Below are positions 39,012 through 43,616 of a stretch of 64,000 nt of DNA, piece by piece. The stretch's first letter is position 1; every line of letters begins with the position of its first letter. This stretch comes from Candidatus Dormiibacterota bacterium (lineage in GTDB: Bacteria > Chloroflexota > Dormibacteria > Aeolococcales > Aeolococcaceae), in contig CAVPXI010000008.1 of NCBI GenBank assembly GCA_963709585.1, forward strand, positions 32,001 through 96,000, in the 5' to 3' direction. Under the pieces are notes generated by a model. That model made no database searches. It was not told the origin of the DNA and saw only the letters and a list, made by a program, of their open reading frames with translations. A program made the position numbers and the translations under genes.

Positions 39012-40058
39012 ATGCGGGTTTCGAACCGATGGCCGGCGCTCGACGGCTTGCGGGCGGTCGCGGTCTGTGCGGTCATACTCACACACACGTGGGTCTCGCA
39101 ATTCCCGGGAGGCTGGATCGGGGTCGATGTCTTCTTCGTGCTCTCCGGCTTTCTCATAACCGGTGTGCTCCTTCGCGAGGACGGAGAGACGGGGACCATC
39201 TCGCTTCTTCGTTTCTATCGGCGACGCGCAGTACGACTGCTCCCCGCCGTTTTGGTCATGCTGCCGATCGTCGTCGTTGCGGCATACGTATTTCGCCCAG
39301 GTCTCGCGTCAGCAACCCTGCGCATGGCCATCTTCACTGTGGTGTACAGCGCCAACTGGTTTGCTGCCTCTCACCAGCCCACGGGGCTCCTGAGCCACAC
39401 GTGGTCGCTCTCCGTGGAGGAGCAGTTTTATCTGGTCTGGCCCGTGCTTTTGATATTGATGCTCCGCTGGCGCAGCGCTCGTCTCGCGCTGGTCTTGACC
39501 ATTGTCTGCATCGTCGCCGTGGTCATCCATCGAACGATGGCCGCGCAGGCCGTGAACCCACACGACGCGCAGCTCTTTTGGCGCACCGACACTCGGGTGG
39601 ATTCGATTTTGGTTGGGTGCGCACTCTGCTTGGCATCGTCGCTTGGCTACAAGGGATCCGAACGGTTGTGGCGCACCGCCGCTCTGATTGGCGCGGCGTA
39701 CATGGCCGCGCTCCTTCCGACCGCGTACAACACCGGAGGCTGGAATTACACCGTCGGTTATACGGTACTCGCGTTGGCCGCAGCAAGCGTCGTCGGAGCG
39801 GTGGCCGTGCATCCCTGGCCACCACTTGTACGCGTGCTCTCGTGGACTCCACTTGTGCGGATAGGCAAGATATCGTACGCCGTCTATCTCTGGCACTTCC
39901 CGATCGCGGTTTTGCTGCCTCTCGGTCAGGGCCCGGTGCTGGCGCTGGCGACCTTCGCGCTGAGCGTCCTGGTTGCCGAAGTGTCGTGGCGAGTTGTGGA
40001 GCGCCCCGCACAGCGATGGCGCTCTCCACGCAACGCGCTCCGACCCGTGGCGGCGTGA
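39012..40058 (+). CDS. Acyltransferase family 3 (OafA-like)
   Basis: LDGLRAVAV, GVDVFFVLSGFLIT, HTWSLSVEEQFY, GKISYAVYLWH. Confidence 0.93.
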   Translation: MRVSNRWPALDGLRAVAVCAVILTHTWVSQFPGGWIGVDVFFVLSGFLITGVLLREDGETGTISLLRFYRRRAVRLLPAVLVMLPIVVVAAYVFRPGLASATLRMAIFTVVYSANWFAASHQPTGLLSHTWSLSVEEQFYLVWPVLLILMLRWRSARLALVLTIVCIVAVVIHRTMAAQAVNPHDAQLFWRTDTRVDSILVGCALCLASSLGYKGSERLWRTAALIGAAYMAALLPTAYNTGGWNYTVGYTVLALAAASVVGAVAVHPWPPLVRVLSWTPLVRIGKISYAVYLWHFPIAVLLPLGQGPVLALATFALSVLVAEVSWRVVERPAQRWRSPRNALRPVAA

Positions 40059-40195
40059 GTTGATGGCGTACAGGCTAACGTTGCATCGCTGTCACAGCCC
40101 AACCTCGGAACAGCGAGCAGAGTACACGCGTGATCTACGTTGGAGCCGAGTTCGGATGCCCGGGGTGATCGAAGTCGTTCAACTATGGACGGCGC

Positions 40196-40831
40196 TTGCT
40201 CTCCGAGCGGGGATCCGCTTCGACCGTACTCAGGGCTCCCGCGTTGGCTGATACCGCCGCAGTCCACCCGACCGCCGACGTCGAGAACGGCGCGCGTGTG
40301 GGCAAGCGGACCCGCATCTGGGCACGATCACATCTCCGTCGCGGCGCCTCCGTCGGTGACGATTGCATCATCGGCGAAAACGTGCTGATCGATCTCGATG
40401 TGCAGGTGGGCAGTCGCTGCAAGATACAGAACAACGCGCTCTTGTACCACGGAGCCGTGCTCGGCGATGAGGTATTCGTGGGTCCGGGCGCGTGCCTAAC
40501 CAACGACCGCTACCCTCGAGCATCGACGTCTGATGGATCGCTCAAGGCCGACACCGACTGGGTGGTCTCGGGTGTGGTGGTGGAGCGAGGGGCCACGATT
40601 GGAGCGCATGCGGTGGTGGTCGGCGGAGTCCACATCGGCGGCTGGTCGATGATTGGTTCCGGTGCCGTGGTCACGCACGACGTACCTGCCCACGGAATCG
40701 TGGTTGGAAACCCGGCTCGCCGGATCGGCTGGGCCTGCCGGTGCGGCCATCCTCTCGACGCAATGCTTATCTGTGCCGAATGCAGTCGTATCCACGCACT
40801 TCGCGATGGTGAGCTCGTCGAGCTGAGCTAG
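40196..40831 (+). CDS. Hexapeptide-repeat N-acetyltransferase (WbpD/WxcM-like)
   Basis: VHPTADVE, KIQNN, TND.YPR, VVGNPAR.IGW.C.CG; its stop codon overlaps the IS110 core. Confidence 0.88.
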   Translation: MLSERGSASTVLRAPALADTAAVHPTADVENGARVGKRTRIWARSHLRRGASVGDDCIIGENVLIDLDVQVGSRCKIQNNALLYHGAVLGDEVFVGPGACLTNDRYPRASTSDGSLKADTDWVVSGVVVERGATIGAHAVVVGGVHIGGWSMIGSGAVVTHDVPAHGIVVGNPARRIGWACRCGHPLDAMLICAECSRIHALRDGELVELS

Positions 40832-40847
40832 ATCCCATAAGTTGTTG

Positions 40848-42050
40848 TCAAGCTAATCCGGCGCTGCCATGCGCCGGATCGAAGTCCTTGTCGCCGCGCC
40901 ACACGCCCCAGACGATGGCGAGCGCCTTGCTCATGCAGTGACCAAGGGAGTTCATCGCTGACTTGCCCGCGGCCCGCTTGCGAGCGTAGTGGGCGCGGAT
41001 GATCGGGTTGTGTTGCACGCCGACCACCGCCATCCGGTACGCCGCCGCACGCAGATACGAGTTGCCGGTCTTGGCCATGGTCCAGCTCGTCTCGGGGTTC
41101 GCACCCTTCTTCCCTGAACTCTGCTCCTTGGGATGCACGCCTGCGTAGGCGAGCAACTGGTCGACATCGCTGAAGCGCCAGATGTCGCCGATCTCGGCCA
41201 TGAGTGTGGCCGCGGTGGACGGCCCGACACCGGGAATCGAGAGCAGCCGCTGCGACACCTCGCCGTCGAGCAGGGAGGCGACCCGGGTGTCCGCGCTGGC
41301 GATCTGCTGGTCGAGCAGGTCGTGCTGCGCAATCAGGAGGCGCATCGCGAACCCGACCTGCTGCGCGAGTTCCGGCGCAGCCACCGAGGTCTGAGCCAGC
41401 TGCTTGAGCTGGCCGGCCTTGAGCGGTCCGATCGCACGGCCACCACCGCCCGGACACTTGAGCCGAGCCAGGCGGTCCTGGTGCATGCGCGCCACGGCCG
41501 CGGCGGTCGGCGCGTGGCGGAGCACCGCCAGGGCGCTCACGCAGGTCGGGTCGTCCCAGACCTCGCGCAGCTCAGGAAAGCCGATGTCCACCAACCGCTG
41601 GATGCGCTGGCAGACCTGGGCCTGCTCACGCACCAAACGCATCGCGAACCGCGCCGCCTCCTTGAGCTCGGCCCCCACCAGGGGCTCGCTGATCCGCGGC
41701 TGGTCGTGCGTTCCCAACGCCGCCAGTGTGCGCGCGTCGGCCGGGTCGCTCTTGCTCCGCTGCAGCCGGCTCTTGGCGAAGTACTTGGCCTGCAACGGGT
41801 TCACCACCGCCACCGGATACCCCTGGCGACGCAGGTGGCTGGCCAGGTTGAACCAGTAGTGGCCGCTCGATTCCATCACCACCACCTCGATCGGCGCTTC
41901 CTGCTTCGTCATCCACGCGTCCAGTTCGCCGAAGCCCTTGCGCTTGGTGGTGATGGTGAGCACCTTCCGATCCGCCTCGCGCTCACCCTGGCGACACACC
42001 GCCGCCGCGCACTTGTATGCCCCCACGTCGATCCCCACCGCCAGGCTCAT
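40848..42050 (-). CDS. IS110 family recombinase/transposase
   Basis: RuvC-like DEDD (GIDVG, MESSG, KSDPADA), SIPGVG, AYAG..P...SSG serine loop; RBS GGAGG before ATG 42050. Confidence 0.95.
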   Translation of the reverse strand: MSLAVGIDVGAYKCAAAVCRQGEREADRKVLTITTKRKGFGELDAWMTKQEAPIEVVVMESSGHYWFNLASHLRRQGYPVAVVNPLQAKYFAKSRLQRSKSDPADARTLAALGTHDQPRISEPLVGAELKEAARFAMRLVREQAQVCQRIQRLVDIGFPELREVWDDPTCVSALAVLRHAPTAAAVARMHQDRLARLKCPGGGGRAIGPLKAGQLKQLAQTSVAAPELAQQVGFAMRLLIAQHDLLDQQIASADTRVASLLDGEVSQRLLSIPGVGPSTAATLMAEIGDIWRFSDVDQLLAYAGVHPKEQSSGKKGANPETSWTMAKTGNSYLRAAAYRMAVVGVQHNPIIRAHYARKRAAGKSAMNSLGHCMSKALAIVWGVWRGDKDFDPAHGSAGLA

Positions 42051-42074
42051 ACGCACCTCCTGTGTCGGGTTGCG

Positions 42075-42270
42075 ACCCCAGGGGTCCTCGCCTTGCTTCG
42101 TCGCCGCGTGGGCTGATGCTCCATCACCGGTCACCGCCGTCGGATCCCAATCACCGCTCGAAGACGAAGCACGAGGGCCGGTCACTAGCTCCATCGGTCC
42201 CGTCGCCGGATAGCTATGCGCCGGTCTCCCCGTCGAGGTCAGATTCCCCGCGATTCTGACCCTGCCAGGA
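42075..42270 (-). ncRNA. IS110 bridge RNA (boundaries approximate)
   Basis: 5' hairpin GGTCAGA/TCTGACC. Target-loop guides ATAGCTA (42211-42217) and GAGCTAG (42185-42191); donor-loop guides TGGGATC (42143-42149) and ATCAG (42113-42117); closing stem GCTTCGTC/GACGAAGC. Confidence 0.82.
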
Positions 42271-42394
42271 GATATATCAGCTATAAGCGGTCGCGGGACC
42301 TACTCACGAGAGGGCTGCCGGCGACATCCTCCGTAGGGCCGACCTCGAGGATGGAGTTGAGCGCAAGCGGATGGAATTCGCTGGGGCGGCCCGA

Positions 42395-42853
42395 TCAGCC
42401 GCAGATGAACACGACAGCCGCACCCGTCTCCAAGCCACCGTACCCCTTGGCTGAGGTCGCCATGAAGGTCCAGGTATCCCCGCAATTGTTTGTGACGATG
42501 GTCACCTTCACGGACCTGCCGGGTGCGAGCGTGCCGTTGGCGGGAGTTACTGTGGACTGAGTTCCGCCCTCAGGAACGATGAATTGTGGGAACCAATTCA
42601 AAGCGGCGCTAGAGCTACTTGGGTTGCTCAGGGTCACGTGGCACGTCGCTGTGAAGATGGGTGTGCCCGGGGATTGGGTGCAGTTGGCGGGAGGGATGAC
42701 GTCAAACTGGAGCCCGACCGCGCGCGGACTAACCTCCAATCGTGGGGCCGTTGAGGCGGTCACGGTTCCGCCTGCCTCGGCCAGCATCATGCCGATTGCC
42801 AGTAACGGCAGCACCCACAGGACGCGCCTGATTTGCTTCCTGACCATGGTCAT
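42395..42853 (-). CDS. Secreted hypothetical protein (Ig/BACON-like)
   Basis: Signal peptide, then VTPANGTLAPGRSVKVTI beta-rich segment. Confidence 0.55.
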   Translation of the reverse strand: MTMVRKQIRRVLWVLPLLAIGMMLAEAGGTVTASTAPRLEVSPRAVGLQFDVIPPANCTQSPGTPIFTATCHVTLSNPSSSSAALNWFPQFIVPEGGTQSTVTPANGTLAPGRSVKVTIVTNNCGDTWTFMATSAKGYGGLETGAAVVFICG

Positions 42854-42941
42854 CGGCTCTGCTGCCGCCGCCGAAGGCTTGACTTTGCGTGGCAAAGTGA
42901 GGTAGCTTTGTGGTGCAAAGTCACCCAAGGAGATCCCAACC

Positions 42942-43616
42942 ATGGATAACACCCGTGATCTGGAGCAGGCCGCGACCGCCGACAACGGCGGTGCGCTCGA
43001 CCCGCGCGAAGCAGCGCGGCTGCTGGAGCAGACCAACCGAGAGGCCCGGCGTCAATTCTCCATGAACCCGCCGCTGGCGACCGCGCTGATGGGGGTGCTG
43101 ATCCTTTTCGCCTACGGCGCTCTGTGGCTCTCGGTGCTCGGACAGCAACCCTACGCCGGACCGAACCTCGGCGTGATCGCGCTGGTGTACGTGACGGTCG
43201 CCGTCGCGGCCGCCGTGACCGTGAGGATCCACCACCGCGCAACCGCCGGCGTCAGTGGACCCTCCACGAGACAGCGCACGGTCGAGGGGATTGCGGTCCT
43301 CGTGTCCATCGTCGGCGGCAGCCCCGTGATTCAGGGCGCGATGAAGGAGTACGGCGCCAGCGCTGCCATCGTCTACGGAGTGATCCCGGCCGCGGCGCCG
43401 CTGATCATCATCGGCACGACCCTCGTGGGCATTGCCGCTAGCAAGTCCGACTGGCCGATGTTCGGCACCGCTCTCGCGGTCGTGACCGGGGGGATCGTCG
43501 CCGCGTTCGTGGGGCCGATCGATGCGTGGCTGGTCGCCGGGATCAGCCTGTTCATCGCGGTGGTCGGCTACGCCGCTGCCACCACCTCGCAGGGCCGCGC
43601 AGCCGGCCGCGTATGA
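42942..43616 (+). CDS. Membrane protein
   Basis: About 6 TM helices; coupled to the downstream wHTH gene. Confidence 0.75.
   Translation: MDNTRDLEQAATADNGGALDPREAARLLEQTNREARRQFSMNPPLATALMGVLILFAYGALWLSVLGQQPYAGPNLGVIALVYVTVAVAAAVTVRIHHRATAGVSGPSTRQRTVEGIAVLVSIVGGSPVIQGAMKEYGASAAIVYGVIPAAAPLIIIGTTLVGIAASKSDWPMFGTALAVVTGGIVAAFVGPIDAWLVAGISLFIAVVGYAAATTSQGRAAGRV

What the first reader, a model, noticed from the sequence alone, without database searches (positions are those of the whole stretch)
40830..42280. IS110 element with a fully readable bridge RNA: guides match both its donor junction and its insertion site
Seen (minus strand): the right end is TATGGGAT-CT|AGCTC and the left end is TATAG-CT|GATAT. 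This reconstructs a target TATAG-CT-AGCTC and a circular donor TGGGAT-CT-GAT. The 5' NCR carries, in order, a hairpin, ATAGCTA (left target), GAGCTAG (complement of CTAGCTC, right target), TGGGATC (left donor) and ATCAG (complement of CTGAT, right donor). Known: IS110 recombinases such as IS621 use a two-loop bridge RNA with this guide order and a CT core. Inference: this is an intact RNA-guided recombinase with its own specificity and a candidate new programmable ortholog.
Basis: partly seen in the sequence, partly recalled or inferred. Interest (0 to 1): 0.85.

Follow-up and report, generated by a model that had tools for sequence, protein, structure and literature searches.

The report
IS110 insertion sequence with bridge RNA

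Summary
Window 40830-42280 (minus strand) is a 1451-bp element bounded by CT at both ends. It encodes a 400-aa IS110-family recombinase with the DEDD and Ser catalytic residues. A 229-nt left end carries ATAGCTA, GAGCTAG, TGGGATC and ATCAG in that order.

- **Copies.** The genome holds three near-identical copies at sites (A)(T/A)AG-CT-AGCT(C/G).
- **Empty sites.** A same-genus genome has two of these sites empty, each with a single CT.
- **Target guides.** Across 64 distinct insertion events of relatives, guide and flank covary at LT -4..-1 and RT +1..+5.
- **Donor guide.** The left donor guide covaries with the right end of the element.
- **Blind scan.** A scan of the whole left end against the flanks returns only these guide positions, plus one "handshake" base.
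[quoted passage not shown] The guides lie in the loops.

This matches IS621 feature by feature. Transcription, RNA binding and recombination were not tested. Verdict: supported; a new member of a known kind; modest interest as a high-GC soil (Dormibacterota) orthologue with short guides.

The parts
40830..42280 (-). Whole element including the CT core at both ends (1451 bp; 1449 bp counting one core)
   Evidence: Three copies in the genome share exactly these ends. Empty sites with one CT exist in a relative.
42279..42280 (-). Left copy of the CT core
42271..42278 (-). Start of the left end, GATATATC. It holds the right-donor bases GAT, the ATA half of a short TAT...ATA subterminal inverted repeat, and a possible TG-n-TATATC extended -10.
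   Evidence: CTGATATA is invariant in 49 of 49 aligned relatives. The promoter role is inferred. A junction promoter is described for IS621.
42237..42261 (-). 5' stem-loop of the bridge RNA (nt 20-44 of the element)
   Evidence: All 7 pairs show compensatory changes among relatives (helices 1-2).
42172..42232 (-). Target-binding loop module (outer stem nt 49-60/100-109, inner stem nt 73-75/84-86)
   Evidence: RNAalifold on a plain MAFFT alignment predicts both stems and leaves the guides unpaired. 97-100% of cells are paired.
42211..42217 (-). Left target guide ATAGCTA (LT -4..-1, core CT, +1)
   Evidence: Same-sense match to flanks: -4 0.48, -3 0.75, -2 0.89 against 0.23-0.37 in shuffles, 0 of 2000 shuffles as high. 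Recovered by the blind scan.
42185..42191 (-). Right target guide GAGCTAG (reverse complement of CT + AGCTC)
   Evidence: Complement match to flanks at +2..+5: 0.94, 0.80, 0.88, 0.70 against 0.63, 0.25, 0.29, 0.37 in shuffles, 0 of 2000 as high. These are among the top signals of the blind scan.
42095..42170 (-). Donor-binding loop module (outer stem nt 111-118/179-186, middle stem 124-126/173-175, inner stem 142-144/151-153)
   Evidence: All 8 outer-stem pairs show compensatory changes. The middle stem shows GC to AU in 21 rows.
42143..42149 (-). Left donor guide TGGGATC (matches the right end TGGGAT plus the first core base)
   Evidence: Covaries with the right end: GGGAT/GGGAC/GGGTT pair with GGGATC/GGGACC/GGGTTC. 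At -2 0.95 vs 0.58 and at -1 0.98 vs 0.70, 0 of 2000 shuffles as high.
42113..42117 (-). Right donor guide ATCAG (reverse complement of CT + GAT)
   Evidence: RNAalifold pairs it with element nt 1-5 in 49 of 49 sequences. Both sides are almost invariant, so no covariation test is possible.
42112..42112 (-). Probable handshake guide base C (nt 169), complementary to target position -1 (G)
   Evidence: Against LTG -1: G/C 55, C/G 2, U/A 1, G/U 1 and 2 with a gap, of 61 distinct left ends. Sixth-strongest signal in the blind scan. An analogous position is described for IS621.
42056..42061 (-). Ribosome-binding site AGGAGG, 5 nt before the ATG
   Evidence: Read directly from the sequence.
40848..42050 (-). 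Recombinase gene, 400 aa (ATG 42050, TGA 40850-40848)
   Evidence: PF01548 5e-26 and PF02371 3e-23. NF033542 at 205.7 bits against a cutoff of 140. D8, E60, D102, D105, S311 and S312 are invariant in 21 relatives. Aligned to IS621 and ISCro4.
40846..40851 (-). TTGACA in the right end, overlapping the stop codon; candidate -35 box of a promoter completed only in the circular form
   Evidence: TTGACN lies 18 bp from TATAnn across the computed RE-LE junction in 70 of 71 relatives. Function is inferred.
40830..40837 (-). Right end TGGGAT plus the right copy of the CT core

Best explanation
An intact, recently mobile insertion sequence of the IS110 group of the IS110 family.

Proposed cycle (inferred by analogy with IS621):
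1. The element excises as a circle.
2. In the circle, the right end (TTGACA) and the left end (TG-n-TATATC) probably form a promoter.
3. That promoter would start transcription near the 5' stem-loop and make a bridge RNA of about 170 nt.
4. The DEDD/Ser recombinase binds this RNA.
5. The first internal loop reads the target ATAG-CT-AGCTC on both strands. ATAGCTA pairs with the bottom strand and GAGCTAG with the top strand.
6. The second loop reads the circle junction TGGGAT-CT-GAT.
7. Strands are exchanged at the CT core, leaving one CT on each side.

Shown here: the anatomy, the copies, the empty sites, the conserved RNA structure, and guide/target and guide/donor covariation.
Inferred from IS621: transcription, RNA binding, the chemistry and the circle.
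For: Protein:
- Both family domains are present, and the NCBIfam equivalog 'IS110 family RNA-guided transposase' scores above its cutoff.
- The DEDD residues and the Ser-Gly loop are invariant and align to IS621 and ISCro4. Their roles come from passages read in PMC11208158.

Mobility:
- Three copies differ at 2 of 1451 positions, and all three have open reading frames.
- The sites of copies 2 and 3 are empty, with a single CT, in same-genus genome G443.
- The two flanks of copy 3 lie adjacent in many other relatives.
- Soil metagenome contigs break at the element's ends and continue into further left-flank contexts. Depth inside the element is 3-5 times that of the flanks.

Target specificity:
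- The three own sites match the 11-nt guide-predicted target at 11, 10 and 10 positions.
- The genome has 0 free exact sites and only 2 free sites with one mismatch.

Covariation:
- 64 distinct insertion events with 50 distinct guide pairs were analysed.
- Signal appears at LT -4..-1 and RT +1..+5 only.
- A blind scan of the variable positions among left-end nt 1-199 against 20 flank positions in both senses gave nt 90-93, 64-67 and 169 as its top nine signals.
- The left donor guide covaries with the right end.

Structure:
- 92% of cells are paired, against 31-52% when partners are slid.
- 19 of 34 pairs show compensatory changes, against 11.9 in shuffles; 0 of 500 shuffles are as high.
- RNAalifold on an unfitted alignment leaves both target guides unpaired.

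Detail shared with IS621: the left donor guide pairs with only the first core base, and the second is C opposite T in 41 of 41 combinations. IS621's LDG likewise ends at the pair with dG7*.
Against: - No RNA evidence. The only RNA-library contigs laid (X16) are 90-95% alike, so they come from a relative. They also run on into flanking DNA, so they do not show a discrete small RNA.
- No contig joined right end to left end, and none showed an empty window site (contigs only). No syntenic empty site was found for the window copy itself.
- The consensus promoter scan finds nothing in the integrated copy.
- The proposed -10 (TATATC) lacks the usual final T.
- Rfam has no match at E <= 1.
- The single-sequence fold pairs the two target guides with each other and is only marginally better than shuffles.
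- The structure counts come from an alignment fitted to a structure I drew from this sequence, which favours that structure.
- The right donor guide cannot be tested by covariation, because both sides are invariant.
Confidence: 0.9

Rival explanations
1. The element is a true IS110 member but an immobile relic. The three copies would be old duplications, and the guide matches would record past activity only.
For: No circle junction or excision product was seen in the contigs laid. No RNA evidence exists. No empty site was found for the window copy.
Against: - The copies differ at 2 of 1451 bases and all have open frames.
- The catalytic residues are intact.
- Sites occupied here are empty in a same-genus genome whose flanks are 91-99% identical.
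- Metagenome contigs show further insertion contexts of a >=99% identical element.
Confidence: 0.06
2. The left end is only a leader that regulates recombinase expression. Target choice would be made by the protein, and the sequence matches would be a by-product of the element copying part of its target.
For: The left end lies directly upstream of the gene, and a conserved hairpin precedes the ribosome-binding site. Older literature read IS110 ends as regulatory, as cited in PMC11208160.
Against: - The guide segments lie 60-170 nt inside the element, not at its ends, so they cannot be carried-over target DNA.
- They covary with flanks base by base, in the strand senses expected for RNA-DNA pairing.
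- They sit in loops held by conserved stems.
Confidence: 0.03
3. The four matches are chance, helped by the palindromic AGCT-rich target.
For: ATAGCTA and GAGCTAG share the palindrome AGCT and can pair with each other.
Against: The ordered motifs occurred in 0 of 200,000 shuffles. Relatives with quite different, non-palindromic targets (AATAC, AGAAG, GAAGCC, TTTCG, ATTCA) carry the matching guide.
Confidence: 0.01

Closest known systems
IS621 of Escherichia coli (IS110 group; bridge RNA; PMC11208160, PMC11208158: passages read)
   Same: - DEDD RuvC-like domain plus a Tnp domain with a catalytic Ser.
- CT core, long left end and short right end.
- RNA made of a 5' stem-loop, a target-binding loop and a donor-binding loop.
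- Left guides are in the sense of the top strand and right guides are its reverse complement, each including the core.
- The left donor guide stops after the first core base.
- A handshake base follows the right donor guide.
- A TAT...ATA short inverted repeat flanks the donor.
- A -35 box lies in the right end.
   Different: - The protein is distant. phmmer gives E = 5e-24, and only residues 5-123 and 267-393 align.
- The protein is 400 aa against 326 aa in IS621, with a middle region about 75 aa longer.
- Guides are shorter on the left: 4 nt plus the core plus one base, against 7 plus the core in IS621.
- The right guide is 5 nt plus the core.
- Target positions -1 (G), +1 (A) and mostly +2 (G) are nearly fixed in this clade.
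- No support was found for the second (target-loop) handshake base.
- The host is a high-GC uncultured soil lineage.
ISCro4 transposase (PDB 9t56)
   Same: It is the best-scoring solved relative (E = 3e-26) and aligns over the same two domains.
   Different: Only the sequence match was examined. Nothing about its RNA was checked here.
IS1111 group of the IS110 family (seekRNA type)
   Same: It has the same recombinase family and an RNA-guided mechanism (PMC11208160 passage).
   Different: IS1111 elements have short left ends, long right ends that carry the RNA, and 7-17 bp subterminal inverted repeats. Here the left end is 229 nt, the right end is 16 nt plus the core, and the inverted repeat is 3 nt.

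Membership tests
IS110 family, IS110 group (bridge-RNA elements) | [quoted passage not shown] | tested here: met
   PF01548 E = 5e-26 over the full profile 1-155. D8, E60, D102 and D105 are invariant in 21 relatives. They lie in the motifs aligned to IS621 GID, IEATG and KTDxxDA. Residue roles come from PMC11208158.
IS110 family, IS110 group (bridge-RNA elements) | C-terminal Tnp domain (PF02371) with the conserved catalytic serine followed by glycine | tested here: met
   PF02371 E = 3e-23. S312-G313 aligns to the S-G of IS621 and is invariant.
IS110 family, IS110 group (bridge-RNA elements) | Curated whole-protein model | tested here: met
   NF033542 'IS110 family RNA-guided transposase' scores 205.7 bits against a cutoff of 140.
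IS110 family, IS110 group (bridge-RNA elements) | Long non-coding left end, short right end | tested here: met
   229 nt from the core to the ATG; 16 nt from the stop codon to the core.
IS110 family, IS110 group (bridge-RNA elements) | Insertion at a short core (CT) present once in the empty site and at both ends of the inserted element, with no other duplication | tested here: met
   Occupied against empty sites for copies 2 and 3. 71 relatives are bounded by CT...CT.
IS110 family, IS110 group (bridge-RNA elements) | [quoted passage not shown] | tested here: met
   19 of 34 pairs have compensatory changes. 92% of cells are paired against 31-52% when slid. Caveat: the alignment was fitted to the model.
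IS110 family, IS110 group (bridge-RNA elements) | First loop: the 5' side matches the top strand of left target plus core, the 3' side is the reverse complement of core plus right target, and both covary with insertion sites | tested here: met
   (64-68 distinct events).
IS110 family, IS110 group (bridge-RNA elements) | Second loop: matches the right end plus core and the core plus left end of the element itself | tested here: met
   The left donor guide covaries with the right end. The right donor guide is complementary to nt 1-5 in 49 of 49 sequences but is invariant, so there is complementarity without covariation.
IS110 family, IS110 group (bridge-RNA elements) | Promoter rebuilt across the right-end/left-end junction of the circle | tested here: inconclusive
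   TTGACN lies 18 bp from TATAnn in 70 of 71 elements. The -10 is non-canonical and nothing was measured.
IS110 family, IS110 group (bridge-RNA elements) | The RNA is made, binds the recombinase and directs recombination; a circular intermediate exists | not testable with these tools
   Only contigs of public runs were available. They showed no joints and no clear transcript.
IS1111 group (seekRNA downstream of the gene) | Long right end carrying the RNA and 7-17 bp subterminal inverted repeats | tested here: not met
   The right end is 16 nt plus the core, and the inverted repeat is TAT...ATA only.

The most novel reading that the evidence does not exclude
This Dormibacterota clade may be a naturally 'short-guide' bridge recombinase. 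Its features would be:
- Only four left and five right target bases are read, three of them nearly fixed.
- Target position -1 is locked to a handshake base in the donor loop.
- The middle domain of the protein is enlarged.

Its 50 or more natural guide pairs amount to a ready-made reprogramming series. If the cloned system works in a heterologous host, it would be a compact orthologue suited to high-GC genomes, with specificity rules different from IS621.
Probability: 0.45. Interest if true: 0.45.

Novelty: new member of a known kind. Interest (0 to 1): 0.3.

Why it matters
The finding shows that a bridge RNA can be read correctly from raw sequence. It documents the system in an uncultured high-GC soil phylum for which no paper in the library mentions IS110.

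The family offers more than 60 natural insertion events with matched guides. These define the readable positions (4 + CT + 5) and one handshake position without any experiment.

For genome annotation, it explains three repeat-induced assembly breakpoints in this genome. It does not change what is known about the mechanism.

Tried and rejected
- **Rfam.** Release 15 had no match at E <= 1 over 40000-43000. I did not establish whether Rfam holds a bridge-RNA family, so this says little.
- **Single-sequence fold.** It is not informative, because it pairs the two target guides with each other owing to the palindromic target.
- **RNAalifold.** It missed the outer and middle donor-loop stems, because MAFFT misaligned the 3' strand. 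I therefore drew a structure by hand, built model R1 and realigned.
- **Empty site for the window copy.** None was found. The hexapeptide-transferase gene matches relatives only up to about 50 nt before the site, and the other flank lies elsewhere in those genomes.
- **Phylum-wide protein search.** Only 3 of 401 sampled genomes matched at E <= 1e-80, so it gave little material.
- **Public runs.**
  - All runs are kept as contigs.
  - No joints were found.
  - The RNA-library contigs of X16 come from a 90-95% relative and run into flanks, so they show no transcript.
- **Consensus promoter and terminator scan.** It found nothing in the integrated copy.
- **Target-loop handshake base.** Nt 97 against donor -1 gave 27 complementary and 34 non-complementary pairs of 61, so there is no support.
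- **Earlier-findings index.** It held nothing for this genome.
- **Supplements.** I did not open the supplements of the papers, so I cannot say whether this orthologue is already listed in the 2024 catalogue of predicted bridge RNAs.
Full report
**What is there.** On the minus strand, window 42280-40830 is a 1451-bp unit that begins CT|GATATATC and ends TTATGGGAT|CT.
- It contains one long gene, 42050-40848, of 400 aa. An AGGAGG lies 5 nt before the ATG.
- The longer 448-aa frame in the ORF list runs through the non-coding left end. No homologue uses it; relatives are about 400 aa.
- The protein has the two domains of IS110-family recombinases: PF01548 at 5e-26 and PF02371 at 3e-23.
- It passes the curated NCBIfam model 'IS110 family RNA-guided transposase' with 205.7 bits against a cutoff of 140.
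- Its closest solved relatives are ISCro4 (E = 3e-26) and IS621 (E = 5e-24).
- In the IS621 alignment, the window's D8, E60, D102, D105 and S312-G313 fall in the motifs that hold IS621's D11, E60, D102, D105 and S241-G242. The roles of those residues were read in passages of PMC11208158.
- All of these residues are invariant in an alignment of 21 relatives at 64-100% identity.
- Only residues 5-123 and 267-393 align to IS621, so the middle region is about 75 aa longer than in IS621.

**The observation.**
- ATAGCTA lies at 42217-42211, GAGCTAG at 42191-42185, TGGGATC at 42149-42143 and ATCAG at 42117-42113.
- A hairpin at 42261-42237 precedes them.
- In 200,000 shuffles of the left end, the four motifs never occurred in this order.

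**Copies and empty sites.** The genome (24 contigs, 88.8% complete) has three copies.
- Two copies are identical, and the window copy differs from them at 2 of 1451 positions.
- All three have open frames, and each carries one match to the RNA model.
- In element orientation, the flanks are:
  - copy 1: cttatag[CT..CT]agctcag
  - copy 2: gcggatag[CT..CT]agctgtt
  - copy 3: ccgaaag[CT..CT]agctcgg
- Against the guide-predicted target ATAG-CT-AGCTC, the three sites match at 11, 10 and 10 of 11 positions.
- In same-genus genome G443, the sites of copies 2 and 3 are uninterrupted and hold one CT (...ggatag CT agctgtt......cgagag CT agctcgg...).
- The two flanks of copy 3 are also adjacent in most of the 40 genus relatives searched.
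- For the window copy no syntenic empty site was found.
- The genome has no free exact copy of the 11-mer, where 0.6 would be expected by composition. It has two free sites with one mismatch.
- The window copy sits on the TAG stop codon of a hexapeptide-repeat acyltransferase gene (40196-40831). The stop codon is the same with and without the element.

**Relatives.**
- A protein search found 1313 relatives among the 8000 candidates scored.
- Genome contigs gave 24 loci, nearly all from Dormibacterota assemblies.
- A metagenome scan gave 80 more loci, the best of 226.
- Of 109 loci screened, 71 had a recognisable left-end start and right end 1300-1700 bp apart with enough flank.

**Guide and target covariation.**
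- I dropped four rows with gaps in the guide columns (L012, L016, L046, L067) and collapsed duplicates. This left 64 distinct insertion events with 50 distinct guide pairs.
- The 5' side of the first loop, read in the sense of the top strand, matches the left flank as follows:

| Left-flank position | Match | Shuffled |
|---|---|---|
| -4 | 0.48 | 0.23 |
| -3 | 0.75 | 0.29 |
| -2 | 0.89 | 0.37 |
| -1 | 0.89 | 0.82 |

- Positions -5 to -9 show no excess.
- The reverse complement of the 3' side matches the right flank as follows:

| Right-flank position | Match | Shuffled |
|---|---|---|
| +1 | 0.91 | 0.85 |
| +2 | 0.94 | 0.63 |
| +3 | 0.80 | 0.25 |
| +4 | 0.88 | 0.29 |
| +5 | 0.70 | 0.37 |

- Positions +6 to +10 show no excess.
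- For -4..-2 and +2..+5, 0 of 2000 shuffles reached the observed value.
- Kinship among elements inflates such counts. Even so, the examples are plain: guides predicting AATAC, AGAAG, AGTAG, GAAGCC, TTTCG and ATTCA sit beside exactly those flanks.
- A blind scan took every variable position among left-end nt 1-199 against 20 flank positions in both senses (68 events). Its nine strongest signals were nt 90-93, nt 64-67 and nt 169, and nothing else rose above background.
- The strand senses and order agree with the IS621 scheme read in PMC11208160. There the left guides pair with the bottom strand and the right guides with the top strand, and both include the core.

**Donor side.**
- Among 41 distinct combinations, the left donor guide follows the right end. 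GGGAT, GGGAC and GGGTT ends go with GGGATC, GGGACC and GGGTTC guides.
- At -2 the match is 0.95 against 0.58, and at -1 it is 0.98 against 0.70, with 0 of 2000 shuffles as high. Two exceptions are L076 and L078.
- The guide base opposite the second core base is C, not T, in 41 of 41 combinations. This matches IS621, whose left donor guide (A123-C130) pairs only as far as the complement of the first core base.
- ATCAG is complementary to the element's first five bases in 49 of 49 aligned relatives. Both sides are nearly invariant, so this is complementarity without a covariation test.
- Nt 169, just 3' of ATCAG, is complementary to target position -1 as encoded in the left target guide. The counts are G/C 55, C/G 2, U/A 1, G/U 1 and 2 gaps, of 61 distinct left ends. 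This corresponds to the donor-loop handshake guide of IS621.
- The target-loop handshake position shows no such relation (27 complementary of 61).

**Structure.**
- The single-sequence fold is weak (z = -1.8). It pairs the two target guides, which can form 5 bp here because the target is palindromic.
- RNAalifold on a plain alignment of 49 distinct left ends predicts the outer and inner stems of the first module and the inner stem of the second. It leaves both target guides unpaired.
- I then wrote a full structure: a 5' stem-loop plus two modules, each with an outer stem, an internal loop and an inner stem. I built a covariance model from it and realigned 91 matches, 76 of them distinct.
- On that alignment:
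  - 92.0% of cells pair, against 31-52% when partners are slid and 86.4% in shuffles.
  - 19 of 34 pairs have compensatory changes, against 11.9 in shuffles; 0 of 500 shuffles are as high.
  - The compensatory pairs include all 7 pairs of the 5' stem-loop and all 8 pairs of the donor-module outer stem.
- The alignment is fitted to the model, and the structure came from this sequence, so these figures lean towards it.
- The target-module stems hardly vary. They therefore say little either way, apart from one pair with 6 GC-to-AU changes.

**Promoter.**
- The right end carries TTGACA overlapping the stop codon.
- Across the computed circle junction, it lies 18 bp from TATAnn, preceded by TG, in 70 of 71 elements.
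- IS621 is reported to rebuild a promoter across this junction (passage in PMC11208160) and to express its RNA weakly from integrated copies (abstract of PMC13626964).
- Here the -10 is non-canonical. The integrated copy has no consensus promoter, and nothing was measured. This step is inferred.

**Population data.**
- In contigs of three soil DNA runs, the element is a collapsed repeat at 3-5 times the depth of its flanks.
- Contigs end at 40820-40829 and 42281-42284. They continue into the three known contexts and into several further left-flank contexts.
- No contig joins right end to left end.
- Contigs from an RNA library belong to a 90-95% relative and run into flanks, so they do not show a small RNA.

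**Verdict.**
- The element passes every sequence-level feature of the IS110 group and fails those of the IS1111 group.
- It is a new member of a known kind.
- Its particular traits are a short left guide (4 nt plus the core plus one base), nearly fixed target positions G(-1), A(+1) and G(+2), a longer middle domain and a high-GC uncultured host.
- No paper in the library pairs Dormibacterota with IS110. I did not check the supplementary catalogues of predicted bridge RNAs.
- One of the 64 events (L029) comes from a genome flagged as unpublished (G272). No claim depends on it.

Noticed in passing
L012:520-625: A 74%-identical relative keeps the element start, the donor-binding module and both ends. 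[quoted passage not shown] It could only move with a target guide supplied by another copy, or it is dead.
   Followed up: partly
L009:2198-2253 and L011:2198-2253: Two of three copies in one Dormibacterota genome carry a 33-bp tandem duplication of the right end, so they have two TTGAC...TATGGGAT units.
   Followed up: no
L033:257-270 and L033 right flank: A metagenome contig holds an element whose recombinase is 99% identical. It has the same right flank as this genome's copy 3 but a different left flank (ccactag). This could be recombination between copies or a chimeric assembly across the repeat. The same left context appears as a loose end in run X2.
   Followed up: partly
L076 and L078 right ends: The right ends read GGGAG-CT and GGGAT-CT, while the elements' own left donor guide predicts GGGTT. 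These are the only clear guide/donor mismatches among 41 combinations. The cause could be hybrid elements or mobilisation by another copy's RNA.
   Followed up: no
L020 and L023 right flanks: The flank reads CT|cagccc where the guide predicts CT|agccc, so one extra C follows the core in two of five copies in one genome.
   Followed up: no
window 40196-40831 (+): A hexapeptide-repeat acyltransferase gene ends in the TAG that overlaps the insertion site. The stop codon is unchanged by the insertion, so the gene is not disrupted.
   Followed up: yes
window 42155-42150 and 42128-42123 (-): The motif GGTGAT occurs on both sides of the donor loop, and CGGC...GACCG forms the inner stem of both modules. 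The two modules are therefore built alike, which recalls the pseudo-symmetry described for IS621.
   Followed up: no
window 42074-42087 (-): A GGACCCCTGGGGTC palindrome, conserved in relatives, lies between the end of the donor module and the ribosome-binding site. No U-run follows it. It could be a 3' end or processing site of the RNA, or an element that controls translation.
   Followed up: no
G000:C14 (minus strand, index 438205) and G000:C18 (plus strand, index 25056): These are the only two free sites in the genome within one mismatch of the predicted target. The C14 site (ATAG-CT-AGCTG) is identical over all 11 positions to the site occupied by copy 2.
   Followed up: no
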